NCBI GenBank assembly: GCA_049840735.1
Contig: JASGJN010000026.1
Coordinates: forward strand, 520,961-584,960
Origin: Anaeromyxobacter sp.
Lineage (GTDB): Bacteria > Myxococcota > Myxococcia > Myxococcales > Anaeromyxobacteraceae
DNA: 64,000 nt
Direction: 5' to 3'
Under the pieces are notes generated by a model. The model searched no databases, was not told the DNA's origin, and was given only the letters and a program-made list of their open reading frames with translations. This document shows, piece after piece, positions 22,938-26,226 of this stretch; position 1 is the stretch's first letter, and each line of letters opens with the position of its first letter. The translations under genes were made by a program, and so were the position numbers.

Positions 22938-23157
22938 GCGCCGGGCCGGAGGCCGGCGGCGGGCCGGTCCGCGAGGTGGGCGGGCCGCCCAAGCCGGCGC
23001 CGCCGCGCCGCGCCGTAAGCGTATGCTGACCATGAACGCCCGTCCGCGGCGCGATGGCGCTGCGGCCGTGACAGAATCCGAGACACGCGCTCCTTACCTC
23101 CGCGGCGACACCGAGATCCGCCAGCGGCGCCCGCGCGGCGCCGGAGAGGGAGCCGAC

Positions 23158-24037
23158 ATGCCGCTGCTTTACCCCGAGCTGTTCCGGAACCTGGAGCGCG
23201 CCCGCTGGAACATGGCGGACGACGTGCCCTGGGACGCGTTCGACGCCTCCCTGCTCACCGAGGAGCAGGCGCTCACCATCAAGCACAACGCCATCACCGA
23301 GTGGTCGGCGCTGCCCGCCACCGAGATGTTCCTGCGCGACAACCGCCACGACCACGACTTCTCGGCCTTCATGTCGGTCTGGTTCTACGAGGAGCAGAAG
23401 CACGCGCTGGTGCTGATGGAGTACCTGCGCCGCTTCCGCCCGGAGCTGGTGCCCACCGAGGAGGAGCTGGGGGCGGTCCGGTTCGAGTTCGACCCGGCGC
23501 CGGCGCTGGAGACCCTGATGCTCCACTTCTGCGGCGAGGTCCGGCTCACCCGCTGGTACAAGCGCGCCGCGGAGTGGCACACCGAGCCGGTCATCAAGCA
23601 CGTCTACGGCCTCATCGCCGAGGACGAGGCGCGCCACGGCGGCGCCTACCTGCGCTACATGCAGCGCGCGCTGGAGCGGACGCCGGAGGAGGCGCGCGGC
23701 GCCTTCTCCAAGGTGGGCGTGCTGATGGCCGCGAGCGGCCTCTCCGGCAAGCCGCTCCACCCCACCAACCTGCACGTCAACAAGCAGCTCTTCCCCAACG
23801 ACACGGTGCAGAGCCGCCTGCCGGATCCGGCCTGGCTGGAGCGCTGGCTGGACGAGCAGAATCCGCTTCGACCGCGGCTGCGAGGAGCGGGTGGTGCGGG
23901 CCATGCTGCGCAGCCTCTCGGCGCTCTTCGGCGAGACCTTCGAGACGGTGCGCGATCTGTCGCGCTACCGGCGGGCCAAGGCGCGGGGCGCGGCGGGCGG
24001 AGCGGACGAGGCGCCGGGGGGCGAGGCCCGCGCGTAG
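23158..24037 (+). CDS. Ferritin-like diiron protein (acyl-ACP desaturase-like), apparent +1 frameshift at ~23860
   Basis: EWSALP, EEQKH, DEARHG; continues IRFDRGCEERVV in a shifted frame to TAG 24035-24037. Confidence 0.82.
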
Positions 24038-24054
24038 GCGGTTCGTCCCGCTCC

Positions 24055-24104
24055 GCCCTTCGACTCCGCCGCGGCCTGGCCGCGGCTACGCTCAGGGCGA
24101 ACGG
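24055..24104 (-). repeat. GTAG REP-like repeat, left partner of the REP pair hit by the IS
   Basis: CCCTTCGACTCCG-CCGCGGCC t GGCCGCGG-CTACGCTCAGGGCGAACGG. Confidence 0.9.
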
Positions 24105-24139
24105 TGGTACCAGACCCGTTCGGCCTTCTATGAAGCGGC

Positions 24140-24436
24140 GTCCCCGGTCAAGGGCCGGTGATGTCGTTTGTCCTGAAGCCTGGGCGGCGCTGGTTGGCCA
24201 TCGGTCAGGGAGTCAGGCGAACGCGAGTTCCATCAGCCTTCTATTCGCGCTCAACAGGGGCGGCAGTGCCGCCGGCGCAGTGGGGGATTCGAGCAGGGGG
24301 CGCCATCTGAGCGACGGCCGTTCCTGGTGACCGGCCAAGGCCGAACTCGCGCTCACCCTGTCTCGAAACCCGCTTTCGCCTCACTCCCGGATCTCCGGCC
24401 CGGCGTCCGCCCGACTGGGTCCGATTTTTCGGTCGT
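24140..24436 (-). ncRNA. Predicted bridge/seek RNA of the IS1111-type element (structured core ~24219-24366; ends unknown)
   Basis: Internal loop with GUUCGGCCU and CGCUCAG matching the target halves; second hairpin loop with AUAGAAG and GAUGGAA matching the circle junction. Confidence 0.82.
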
Positions 24437-25468
24437 CTAGGCCATCGCGTTTCCCCTGCAGGTGCGGCTGCCGTCGAAGTCCTTCCCGTCCCTCATCATC
24501 GCGAACAGGATTCCGGAGAGTTTGCGCGCCAGCGCCACGACGGCGACTGCGCGTCCCCTCCGCCGGTGGATCTTCCCCGCCCATTCGCGCAGCGGCAGCG
24601 ACTCTGCGCTCTTGCTGCGCAAGACGCAGTGCGCGGCCTGGACGAGAAGCCAGCGCACCCTGGCGTTGCCGGTCTTGGTGATCCGCCCCTTGCGCTGTTT
24701 CTCGCCCGAGCTCAGCTCGCTAGGGACCAGGCCGCAGTAGGCGGACACCTGCTGGGCACTCTGGAAGCGCTTGGGATCATCGATGACGACGTCGTACGCA
24801 ATGGCCGTCACGACGCCCACGCCTGGCGCCGTCGTGAGCCTCCGTACCACTGCGCTGTCGCGGGCGATGGCCTCGAGGTCAGCGTCGGCCTTGGCGATCC
24901 GGGCGTTCAGCGTGTCGAACATCAGCAGCAACGGCTCGACCTCGTCGCGGACCTCGTCCGGCAGGGCCATCTCCAACACCACTCGCGCGAAGTGCTCGGC
25001 TTCGCAGCTCGGGGCCCGTAGCCCGTGGCTCCGCAAGGACGTCCGGGTCACCGTGATGAACCGCGACCTGGTGCGGACCAGCGTGTCTCTCACCGACAGG
25101 CGGACAGCGACCGTCCGCCGGGATTCCGACCTCCGGTGGGCCGCTCGGTAGGTCCCTGAACGGCAAGCCTCGGCCAGCGCTCGGGCATCTCGCCGATCGG
25201 TCTTTACCCGCCTCGTCCGCGTCCCGTACATCGGCGCGTAATTCGGGTCGGCCACGATCACTTCGTGCCCGAACGATTCGATGTGCCGCGCCACCCATTC
25301 GCTTTCCGTGGAGGCCTCCAGCAGGAGCTTGGCCCGCGGCCTGTTCGCGAGCACCTCGGCGAACCGGTCGGCCCGGGTGGGGATCCGCACCTCCAGAACC
25401 CCGCCCTCCGCGTTCAGGATGCAAAGCTGGCTGTCCTTCTTGTGCAGGTCGATGCCAATATGGTCCAC
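24437..25468 (-). CDS. IS110 family recombinase/transposase
   Basis: RuvC-like DEDD residues in GIDLHK, LLEAS, KTDRRDA; C-terminal GLVPSELSSG (catalytic Ser) and GRITKTGN. Confidence 0.96.
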   Translation of the reverse strand: MDHIGIDLHKKDSQLCILNAEGGVLEVRIPTRADRFAEVLANRPRAKLLLEASTESEWVARHIESFGHEVIVADPNYAPMYGTRTRRVKTDRRDARALAEACRSGTYRAAHRRSESRRTVAVRLSVRDTLVRTRSRFITVTRTSLRSHGLRAPSCEAEHFARVVLEMALPDEVRDEVEPLLLMFDTLNARIAKADADLEAIARDSAVVRRLTTAPGVGVVTAIAYDVVIDDPKRFQSAQQVSAYCGLVPSELSSGEKQRKGRITKTGNARVRWLLVQAAHCVLRSKSAESLPLREWAGKIHRRRGRAVAVVALARKLSGILFAMMRDGKDFDGSRTCRGNAMA

Positions 25469-25555
25469 GGCTGGTCTCCACTCTCTGCGGCTCTGACCGC
25501 GTTGTGGGGCATTCGTGCCACCACCCCGAGGTGGAGGCCAGCCGCTTCATTCCAT

Positions 25556-25596
25556 CTGAGCGTAGCGCCCGCAGCGCGGGCGCGGAGCCAAAGGCC
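25556..25596 (+). repeat. Right part of the interrupted REP (left part 24116-24126)
   Basis: CTGAGC-GTAG-CGCCCGC agc GCGGGCG-CGGAGCCAAAGGCC. Confidence 0.88.
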
Positions 25597-25601
25597 AGGC
25601 G

Positions 25602-26132
25602 TCACGCCCCCAGGAACCTCCGCGCCACCTCCTCCCAGGAGGCTACGCGGGAGTAGCGGGTCTCGCGCAGGTTCTTGGGGGCGCTGAAGAGGATGCCCTG
25701 CCCGCGGAAGCGGGCGAAGTGGTGCGGGCTGTCGTCGATCAGGTACTCGGCGGCCAGGATGCTCTTGTCCCCGCAGAAGACCACGTGGCTCCCCGGGTGG
25801 AAGGGCAGGTGGCGGCGCAGCCAGCCGAACTTGGCGCTGAAGGAGGCCGGGTACTCGGTGGCGGCGCTGGCCACGAAGACCTCGTAGCGCTCCGAGAGCC
25901 GCCGCACCACCTCCGCCGCGCCGGGCATGGGCGGCAGGTCGGCGAAGAACGCGCCCTCGTGCAGCATGGCCTCGTGCGCATCGCGGTGCTCGGGGCTCAC
26001 CAGCTGGTGCAGCTCGCGGCCGGCCTGCTCGGCCTCGCTCCAGGCGTAGCCGAACCGGTCGCGGTACCAGGCCACCTGGGCGGTGTGGGTGTCCACCAGC
26101 ACGTCGTCCATGTCGATGGCGATCCGCTCCAT
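25602..26132 (-). CDS. 5'(3')-deoxyribonucleotidase (HAD, NT5C family)
   Basis: IAIDMDDVL, KFGWL, FCGDKSI, LIDD. Confidence 0.88.
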   Translation of the reverse strand: MERIAIDMDDVLVDTHTAQVAWYRDRFGYAWSEAEQAGRELHQLVSPEHRDAHEAMLHEGAFFADLPPMPGAAEVVRRLSERYEVFVASAATEYPASFSAKFGWLRRHLPFHPGSHVVFCGDKSILAAEYLIDDSPHHFARFRGQGILFSAPKNLRETRYSRVASWEEVARRFLGA

Positions 26133-26226
26133 GGCAGGAGGCTACGGCAGCGCTGCCCGCCGCGCCCGCGAAAACTCGCGGCGTGGGAGCCCTGCTGTAA
26201 GCTGCGCGCCGCGAAAGGTGGCGAGC

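What the first reader, a model, noticed from the sequence alone, without database searches (positions are those of the whole stretch)
24295..24366. Bridge/seek RNA target loop whose guides spell the exact insertion site
Seen: the minus-strand RNA reads CAGGGUGAGCGC-GA-GUUCGGCCU-U-GGCCG(11 nt)CGGCC-GU-CGCUCAG-AUG-GCGCCCCCUG, an internal loop between an outer and an inner stem. GUUCGGCCU (24346-24338) equals the left flank plus core (24118-24126). CGCUCAG (24313-24307) is complementary to core plus right flank (25556-25562). The reconstructed target is GTTCGGC-CT-GAGCG. Established: IS110/IS1111 recombinases use bridge/seek RNAs, and IS621 has a 7+CT+5 target with left and right target guides arranged this way. 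Inference: this is a complete RNA-guided recombinase system from a myxobacterium, with readable and probably reprogrammable specificity.
Basis: partly seen in the sequence, partly recalled or inferred. Interest (0 to 1): 0.92.

Follow-up and report, generated by a model that had tools for sequence, protein, structure and literature searches.

The report
IS1111-type jumping gene with guide RNA
This is an intact insertion sequence of a known RNA-guided kind whose own folded RNA spells out the short genomic repeat it inserts into, a good natural example of a mechanism described in 2024 and not a new one.

Summary
Window 24127-25555 (minus strand) is a 1429-bp IS110-family element of the IS1111 type. 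It has a DEDD/Ser transposase gene (24437-25468), 10-bp subterminal inverted repeats and a 310-nt non-coding region 3' of the gene.

In that region an internal loop carries GUUCGGCCU (24346-24338), which equals left flank plus CT. It also carries CGCUCAG-AU (24313-24305), which is complementary to CT plus right flank plus the last two bases of the element.

All five genomic copies sit in the same site. The uninterrupted 14-mer occurs 101 times (0.18 expected), inside a REP-like repeat.

The decisive test was comparative. In 28 relatives (45-66% protein identity) with different insertion sites, the two arms match their own flanks (8.0 and 6.6 of 9) but not other elements' flanks (4.4 and 4.6). 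None of 20,000 permutations reached the observed value. The stems show compensatory changes.

A second module matches the element's right end. Its left-end guide cannot be read in this copy.

RNA expression was not tested. Published work (Siddiquee 2024; Durrant 2024) already describes this architecture, and this scan has noted the same kind on other DNA. Verdict: a new member of a known kind, of modest interest.

The parts
24118..24126 (+). Left flank (GTTCGGC) plus left copy of the CT core (24125-24126). This is half of a REP-like repeat.
   Evidence: identical in all 5 genomic copies; part of a 14-mer found 101 times uninterrupted.
24127..25555 (-). IS1111-type insertion sequence, 1429 bp without the core dinucleotide.
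   Evidence: 5 copies, 98-100% identical, same boundaries. (family).
24127..24139 (-). Right end in element orientation: subterminal inverted repeat GCCGCUUCAU (24139-24130) plus the 3-nt extension AGA (24129-24127).
   Evidence: The same end architecture is present in 55 of 80 related loci.
24146..24151 (-). TTGACC, a -35-like box conserved 20 or 25-26 nt from the right end.
   Evidence: TTGAY at these distances in 33 of 38 elements. Its function is inferred only.
24236..24245 (-). 3' arm of the donor module: A-AUAGA-AG-GC. It is identical to the right end (TAGA) plus core, followed by GC, which equals the first two flank bases.
   Evidence: 9-nt match 24236-24244; the variable base of the right end matches the RNA in 26 of 28. 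MI 1.28, identical in 96%.
24246..24279 (-). Stem of the donor module (UGCGCC 24279-24274 with GAGCGCG 24252-24246), enclosing the hairpin 24273-24259.
   Evidence: helix 3 is 100% paired. Helix 4 has 3 of 4 pairs with changes on both sides.
24280..24291 (-). 5' arm of the donor module (CGAAUCCCCCAC), the expected place of the left-end guide. It is not readable in this copy.
   Evidence: the family-wide association is weak but present (own 4.85 against 4.05; 3 of 20,000 permutations). The window's own score is 3.5, and 21 of 22 foreign end types score as well.
24296..24303 (-). 3' strand of the target-loop outer stem.
   Evidence: helix 1 (columns 21-29 with 93-100) is 94.6% paired, and 4 of 8 pairs changed on both sides.
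24305..24313 (-). 3' arm of the target loop: CGCUCAG (24313-24307) is complementary to + strand CT+GAGCG. AU (24306-24305) is a handshake-type pair of bases matching the element's left end.
   Evidence: 11-nt match 24303-24313; own 6.57 of 9 against 4.63; flank positions track columns 84-87, and the first end base tracks column 90 (identical in 96%).
24315..24337 (-). Inner stem-loop of the target loop (GGCCG, 11-nt loop, CGGCC).
   Evidence: helix 2 is 91.4% paired, with 3 of 5 pairs changed on both sides. The one SNP among the five copies (24334) keeps a G-U pair.
24338..24346 (-). 5' arm of the target loop: GUUCGGCCU, identical to + strand left flank plus CT.
   Evidence: own 8.00 of 9 against 4.42; complementary covariation at columns 32-35 in element orientation.
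24349..24357 (-). 5' strand of the target-loop outer stem (family-conserved GAGCGCG).
24437..25468 (-). Transposase/recombinase gene, 343 aa, GTG start. Catalytic residues D7, E51, D91, D94 and S254-G255.
   Evidence: PF01548 and PF02371. (NF033542, 249 bits, cut-off 140). (ISCro4 1.5e-15, IS621 1.1e-12)..
25541..25555 (-). Left end in element orientation: 5-nt extension AUGGA (25555-25551) plus subterminal inverted repeat AUGAAGCGGC (25550-25541).
25556..25562 (+). Right copy of the CT core (25556-25557) plus right flank GAGCG. This is the other half of the REP-like repeat.

Best explanation
Window 24127-25555 is an intact IS1111-type (IS110-family) insertion sequence on the minus strand. Its 310-nt region downstream of the transposase gene encodes a structured guide RNA, called seekRNA or bridge RNA in print.

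The first module is an internal loop between an outer and an inner stem.
- Its 5' arm (GUUCGGCCU) pairs with one strand of the target on one side of the CT core.
- Its 3' arm (CGCUCAG) pairs with the other strand on the other side.
- Two further bases (AU) can pair with the incoming element end after strand exchange.
- Together the arms specify GTTCGGC-CT-GAGCG, which lies in a REP-like repeat with about a hundred free copies in this genome.

The second module presents a segment identical to the element's right end plus core, which is a donor guide.

The DEDD/Ser recombinase then exchanges strands at the core dinucleotide between the excised circle and the target.

Shown here: the matches, their covariation with the flanks, the conserved stems, the family of the protein and the repeated target.
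Inferred from published work on ISEc11, ISPa11 and IS621: that the RNA is made, that it binds the protein and that it directs recombination.
For: Protein:
- Pfam DEDD_Tnp_IS110 plus Transposase_20.
- NCBIfam 'IS110 family RNA-guided transposase', 249 bits against a cut-off of 140.
- Homology to the solved ISCro4 and IS621 recombinases, with D-E-D-D and S-G aligned.

Element in this genome:
- Five copies share identical boundaries and identical flanks, with identical guide arms.
- The reconstructed 14-mer occurs 101 times uninterrupted, against 0.18 expected.

Relatives:
- 55 of 80 related loci share the same end architecture.
- Exact junction-spanning matches of 7 nt or more in both arms occur in 10 of 38 elements with their own flanks, against 1 of 1362 pairings with foreign flanks.
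- On a 28-sequence alignment, own-flank agreement is 8.00 and 6.57 of 9, against 4.42 and 4.63 for 700 foreign pairings. None of 20,000 permutations reached the observed value.
- The top mutual-information pairs are exactly the predicted diagonals.
- Four helices are 94.9% paired, against 29-58% when the partner is slid. Eleven of 23 pairs changed on both sides.
- The right-end donor guide matches in 26 of 28.

Published IS1111 features are all met (PMC11187229 passages): downstream non-coding region, subterminal inverted repeats, 7-bp left and 3-bp right extensions, and the top-strand complement lying 5' of the bottom-strand match.
Against: - There is no evidence here that the RNA is made. 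No sequencing run was listed, and no promoter-like or terminator-like site was found.
- The single-sequence fold is no better than shuffles.
- Short matches of this size between a 30-nt site and this G+C-rich region are common by chance if position is ignored.
- The left-end donor guide cannot be read in this copy, so a full two-loop bridge is not shown.
- Relatives are related, so permutation counts overstate independence.
- 10 of 38 dereplicated elements were left out of the alignment. One lacked an anchor, four were mis-anchored fragments, and five were near-duplicates judged by eye.
Confidence: 0.9

Rival explanations
1. The RNA is a target-only seekRNA. It reads the insertion site, while the element's own ends are recognised by the protein through the strongly conserved subterminal inverted repeats. 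The second module is then a scaffold and not a true donor-binding loop.
For: - The left-end arm is unreadable in the window's copy. Its own score is 3.5, and 21 of 22 foreign end types score at least as well.
- The inverted repeat (A)TGAAGCGGC is nearly invariant across relatives of 45-66% identity while the targets differ.
- Only one position of the right end varies, so the agreement in 26 of 28 could be shared descent.
- Siddiquee et al. state that end recognition may differ between the two families (PMC11187229, passage).
Against: - The right-end segment plus core is copied in the RNA at a fixed place next to a conserved stem.
- Family-wide, the 5' arm is associated with the left end (3 of 20,000 permutations).
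- Durrant et al. report donor loops for IS1111-group elements (PMC11208160, passage and figure legend).
Confidence: 0.2
2. The matches are coincidence or a captured fragment of the REP-like repeat inside the element. On this reading the protein alone recognises the repeat, for example through its hairpin.
For: - Loose chance matches are frequent in this G+C-rich DNA.
- The target is a palindromic repeat of a kind that some transposases recognise by shape. This point is recalled, not from a call.
Against: - Relatives that insert into unrelated sequences carry the matching bases at the same two places of the same scaffold.
- The two junction-anchored strings co-occur in 3 of 200,000 shuffles.
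- The arms hold only the 7-9 bases around the core and no longer piece of the repeat.
Confidence: 0.02

Closest known systems
IS1111-family elements with a seekRNA: ISEc11, ISPa11, ISKpn4, ISPst6 (Siddiquee et al. 2024, PMC11187229; abstract and passages read)
   Same: - DEDD transposase of about 340 aa.
- Non-coding region downstream of the gene.
- Subterminal inverted repeats with a 7-bp left and a 3-bp right extension.
- Two short target matches in one RNA, with the top-strand complement 5' of the bottom-strand match.
- ISPa11 also homes to a REP sequence.
- Natural retargeting between relatives.
   Different: - A different clade. The closest relatives found are 45-66% identical and come from soil metagenome-assembled genomes. 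I did not compare sequences with the named elements.
- Different target and a very G+C-rich host.
- No RNA or transposition data here.
IS621 and ISCro4 bridge recombinases with bridge RNA (Durrant et al. 2024, PMC11208160; Hiraizumi et al. 2024, PMC11208158; passages read)
   Same: - Homologous recombinase with DEDD plus Ser-Gly.
- CT core.
- A target loop in which one arm is identical to left flank plus core and the other is complementary to core plus right flank.
- Seven bases before the core.
- Two handshake bases after the second arm.
- IS621 also targets REP (title in the reference list).
   Different: - The RNA is 3' of the gene and is transcribed towards the element end, not 5' of the gene.
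- The subterminal repeats are long.
- The guide order is reversed when read in the element's orientation.
- The donor loop is only half readable here.
- Sequence similarity is low (E 1e-12 to 1e-15).
ISPpu9 of Pseudomonas putida (PMC12288879; search listing and start of abstract only)
   Same: An IS110-family element in several copies inserted into REP sequences, with a small-RNA gene downstream of the transposase gene.
   Different: ISPpu9 has extra solo copies of its RNA gene. A DNA search of this genome found only the five full elements plus repeats that match the flank.

Membership tests
IS110 family (DEDD transposases) | Protein with an N-terminal DEDD RuvC-like domain and a C-terminal Tnp domain that carries the conserved Ser-Gly. 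| tested here: met
   PF01548 (8.3e-13) and PF02371 (1.1e-23). NF033542 at 249 bits against a cut-off of 140. D7, E51, D91, D94 and S254-G255 align to the ISCro4 and IS621 motifs. The residue roles come from PMC11208158.
IS1111 group | Longer non-coding region downstream of the transposase gene. | tested here: met
   310 nt downstream (24127-24436) against 87 nt upstream (25469-25555). The criterion comes from PMC11187229 and PMC11208160.
IS1111 group | Subterminal inverted repeats (usually 11-13 bp; 7-17 bp in Durrant et al.) with asymmetric extensions of 7 bp on the left and 3 bp on the right. | tested here: met
   10-bp perfect repeat at 24130-24139 and 25541-25550. The extensions are AG+AUGGA (7, counting the core) and AGA (3). 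At 10 bp the repeat is one short of the 'usual' 11-13 bp but lies within 7-17 bp.
IS1111 group | Site-specific insertion with the same flanks at every copy. | tested here: met
   5 of 5 copies are flanked by CCGTTCGGC-CT and CT-GAGCGTAG. There are 101 empty sites.
seekRNA (Siddiquee et al.) | Two short segments in the non-coding region, one complementary to each target strand, overlapping at the insertion point, with the top-strand complement 5' of the bottom-strand match. | tested here: met
   The order agrees with the passage.
seekRNA (Siddiquee et al.) | An RNA of 70-100 nt that is made, co-purifies with the transposase and is needed for movement. | not testable with these tools
   No sequencing run was listed.
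Bridge RNA (IS621 type) | Target-binding loop: an internal loop with a left and a right target guide around a shared core. | tested here: met
   Structure with covariation. Guides covary with the flanks.
Bridge RNA (IS621 type) | Donor-binding loop with guides for both element ends. | tested here: inconclusive
   The right-end guide is present (26 of 28). The left-end guide is weak family-wide and unreadable in this copy.
Bridge RNA (IS621 type) | Two-base handshake guides next to the second arm of each loop. | tested here: inconclusive
   In the target loop, the first end base tracks column 90 and is identical in 96% of sequences. In the donor loop, GC equals the flank in this copy, but the motif GNUGA is conserved across relatives whatever their flank.
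Bridge RNA (IS621 type) | RNA encoded in the left end, upstream of the recombinase gene. | tested here: not met
   The RNA is downstream. This element is therefore filed under the IS1111 group and not the IS110 group.

The most novel reading that the evidence does not exclude
In this soil clade one constant RNA scaffold has been naturally retargeted many times. The 38 dereplicated elements differ in flanks, and most carry matching arms. The guide for the left element end, by contrast, has decayed, at least in this copy. The clade may therefore use RNA for the target and the right end only, with the left end read by the protein through the invariant subterminal repeat. That would be a hybrid mode of end recognition not yet shown for any IS110 or IS1111 element.
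Probability: 0.15. Interest if true: 0.5.

Novelty: new member of a known kind. Interest (0 to 1): 0.25.

Why it matters
It adds a well-documented natural example of RNA-guided transposition in a very G+C-rich genome that is consistent with a myxobacterium.
- The guides are readable and the target repeat is defined, with about a hundred free sites.
- A set of relatives shows natural retargeting on one scaffold.
- That set could serve as a source of orthologues for recombinase engineering.
- It could also serve to test how IS1111-type elements recognise their own ends.

It does not change what is known about the mechanism.

Tried and rejected
- Rfam 15 scan of 23500-26200 at E up to 10 gave only three chance-level hits (ACAT, sX7, CRISPR-DR9, all far below their gathering scores) and nothing on the guide region.
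- The promoter and terminator consensus scan of 24050-25650 found none.
- Public sequencing runs: none was listed, and no RNA holder was listed.
- A literature search for the 10-nt inverted-repeat string found 86 papers. The 10 listed are all unrelated primer hits.
- I first read AUAGAAGGCUGA (24244-24233) as a 12-nt complement of the left junction. I also read the following GAUGGAA as a guide for the left end. Both readings are rejected beyond AUAGA-AG(-GC). GNUGA is conserved in relatives whatever their flank, and the following bases do not track the left end.
- I looked for a promoter formed at the circle junction. TTGAC is conserved near the right end, but no convincing -10 box could be placed, so this is left as a note.
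- Single-sequence folding cannot serve as evidence for the structure.
- I considered building a covariance model to look for solo RNA genes but did not do it. The DNA search and the Pfam search showed no further copies.

Full report
**What is in the sequence**

The minus strand of window 24437-25468 is a 343-codon open frame.
- It matches Pfam DEDD_Tnp_IS110 and Transposase_20.
- It matches the NCBIfam model 'IS110 family RNA-guided transposase' at 249 bits against a cut-off of 140.
- It is homologous to the solved ISCro4 (E 1.5e-15) and IS621 (E 1.1e-12) recombinases.
- In those alignments D7, E51, D91, D94 and S254-G255 stand at the motifs that Hiraizumi et al. give as the catalytic D11, E60, D102, D105 and S241-G242 of IS621 (PMC11208158, passages). 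D7 is placed through the ISCro4 alignment only.

**Boundaries and target**

A DNA search of the window's own genome (6.67 Mb, 26 contigs) found five copies that are 98-100% identical.
- All five begin and end at the same bases.
- All five are flanked by CCGTTCGGC-CT on the window's left and CT-GAGCGTAG on its right.
- The element is therefore 24127-25555 (1429 bp), with the dinucleotide CT on both sides.
- It carries a perfect 10-bp subterminal inverted repeat (24130-24139 and 25541-25550). This leaves 3 nt beyond the repeat at one end. At the other end it leaves 5 nt, or 7 if the core is counted.
- The uninterrupted site GTTCGGCCTGAGCG occurs 101 times in the genome, against 0.18 expected from composition.
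- Each time it sits at the start of a REP-like unit (site, G+C-rich hairpin, GGAGTCGAAGGCCAGG). Some units stand in tandem arrays.
- By Pfam hit and open frame, three copies look intact. One has a 208-aa frame and one gave no hit. Those two carry indels in the gene.
- In the non-coding region the five copies differ at two bases and one 2-nt indel. None of these lies in a guide arm. The change at 24334 keeps a G-U pair in the inner stem.

- GUUCGGCCU (24346-24338) equals 24118-24126.
- CGCUCAG (24313-24307) is the complement of 25556-25562.
- Both matches run on into the element ends, to 10 nt and 11 nt.

By itself this is only moderately unlikely.
- If position is ignored, matches of this length are common in this G+C-rich DNA: 456 of 5000 and 1353 of 5000 shuffles.
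- The two junction-anchored strings co-occur in 3 of 200,000 shuffles.
- The fold of the single sequence does not stand out.

**Relatives**

A scan of one genome per species returned 80 loci encoding proteins 45-66% identical. Most come from Gemmatimonadota and Vicinamibacterales assemblies. Records of the window's own genome may be left out of that scan.
- In 55 of the 80, both ends could be placed by the conserved inverted repeat. In element orientation the layout is always flank, AG, 5 nt, ATGAAGCGGC, then GCCGCTTCAN, AGA, AG, flank.
- The other 25 were not examined further.
- Of the 56 elements including the window's, I dropped three without 12 nt of flank on both sides (L032, L046, L096). 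I also dropped two with irregular ends (L097, L108).
- I then kept one element per flank pair, which left 38.

**The guides track the flanks**

In most of the 38, the region about 100-140 nt after the stop codon holds the reverse complement of the right flank plus core. About 30 nt further on it holds the left flank plus core plus the first bases of the element. The sequences differ from element to element.
- Exact junction-spanning matches of 7 nt or more in both arms occur in 10 of 38 elements with their own flanks. They occur in 1 of 1362 pairings with foreign flanks.
- I aligned 28 of the 38. Left out were L090 (no second anchor), L035, L042, L075 and L099 (fragments of the wrong length after anchoring), and L040, L061, L072, L077 and L083. 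The last five I judged by eye to be near-duplicates of rows that were kept.
- On this alignment the 5' arm agrees with its own flank at 8.00 of 9 positions and the 3' arm at 6.57 of 9. For 700 foreign pairings the values are 4.42 and 4.63. None of 20,000 permutations of flank assignment reached the observed sum.
- A blind mutual-information map of every junction position against every alignment column puts the predicted diagonals on top. Left-flank positions -4 to -1 track columns 84-87 and are identical in 71-93% of sequences. Right-flank positions track columns 32-35 and are complementary in 57-75%.
- The sequences are related, so these counts overstate independence. The flanks are unrelated sequences, however, so the signal is not inheritance of one site.

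**Structure**

RNAalifold on the 28 sequences gives four helices.
- Target module: an outer stem (columns 21-29 with 93-100; window 24357-24349 with 24303-24296) and an inner stem (24337-24333 with 24320-24315). The two 11-column arms are left unpaired.
- Second module: a stem UGCGCC/GAGCGCG (24279-24274 with 24252-24246) around a hairpin (24273-24259).
- Counted on the alignment, 94.9% of cells pair, against 29-58% when partners are slid by 1-3 columns. Eleven of 23 pairs have changes on both sides. 0-1 of 500 column shuffles reach the observed measures.

1. The 'AUG' after CGCUCAG begins with bases that copy the first bases of the element's left end. The first of them tracks that end across relatives, identical in 96%. 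This is the place and size of the two-base handshake guides of IS621 (PMC11208158, passage).
2. The arm 3' of the second stem reads A-AUAGA-AG-GC, which is the element's right end plus core. The one variable base of that end (C, G or T) agrees with the RNA in 26 of 28. This count includes L060, where an insertion shifts the match.
3. The arm 5' of that stem is where a guide for the left end is expected. Family-wide it is associated with the left end: gapped score 4.85 for own ends against 4.05 for foreign, 3 of 20,000 permutations, on 26 unique arm/end combinations, with L109 dropped as mis-anchored. In the window's own element the fit is poor: 3.5, with 21 of 22 foreign end types scoring at least as well. 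I leave it open.

**Comparison with print**

Siddiquee et al. (PMC11187229; abstract and passages) describe the IS1111 family as having:
- a non-coding region downstream of the gene;
- subterminal inverted repeats, usually of 11-13 bp;
- extensions of 7 bp on the left and 3 bp on the right;

One of their elements, ISPa11, targets a REP. Every sequence-level feature is met here. Durrant et al. (PMC11208160, passages) predicted bridge RNAs in 93.0% of the IS1111 elements in ISfinder, located in the right end.

Seen from the window's + strand, the arms have the IS621 arrangement: first arm identical to left flank plus CT, second arm complementary to CT plus right flank. Seven bases precede the core, since IS621's core stands at positions 8-9. 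The 14-nt total length of the IS621 target is recalled, not checked. Seen in the element's own orientation the order is reversed, as published.

**Host**

The genome has 73.5% G+C. It has two hits over the cut-off to the MYXO-CTERM model, against none in 14 control genomes. That is consistent with a myxobacterium and no more.

**Earlier notes of this scan**

At least seven notes on other genomes describe the same kind of element. One note on this genome describes a tandem REP array, which fits the arrays seen. None of these changed the reading. They do show that the kind is common.

**Verdict**

The element is a new member of a known kind. What remains open is expression of the RNA, the left-end guide, and whether the element is already named in ISfinder. 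I could not check the last point.

Noticed in passing
Genome-wide; in the window the half-sites at 24116-24126 and 25556-25605: A REP-like unit (CCGTTCGGCCTGAGCGTAG, a variable G+C-rich hairpin, GGAGTCGAAGGCCAGG) is abundant. The 14-mer core occurs 101 times and CTGAGCGTAG 469 times (10 expected). It also forms tandem arrays of 82-83 bp and about 111 bp units on contigs C10 and C20.
   Followed up: partly
window 24146-24151 (minus strand), and the same place in relatives: TTGAC(C), a -35-like box, lies 20 or 25-26 nt from the right end in 33 of 38 related elements. It faces outward. It might form a promoter with the left end in the excised circle, but no convincing -10 box could be placed.
   Followed up: partly
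window 24085-24097 and 25556-25566: The left flank holds GCTACGCTCAG, about 30 nt before the insertion point. This is the inverted repeat of CTGAGCGTAGC on the right flank. The occupied site therefore lies between two oppositely oriented repeat halves.
   Followed up: no
L065-L071, L078-L083, L098 (one Vicinamibacterales chromosome): A related element is present in at least 14 copies in one genome. All lie in a site with conserved flanks (GGCGTCGGGG-AG and AG-GATCTTCAGCGCGAC), which suggests that it too homes to a genomic repeat.
   Followed up: no
Genome contigs C4:42280-43742 and C26:118161-119644: Two of the five copies carry small indels in the transposase gene (1 and 2 nt; 7 and 1 nt) and are probably inactive, yet they keep intact guide arms.
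   Followed up: partly
window 23023-24036 (+ strand ORF listed as 23023-24330): The gene upstream of the insertion has a weak fatty-acid desaturase match (PF03405, 1.8e-09). The listed ORF frame runs on through the insertion point into the element.
   Followed up: no
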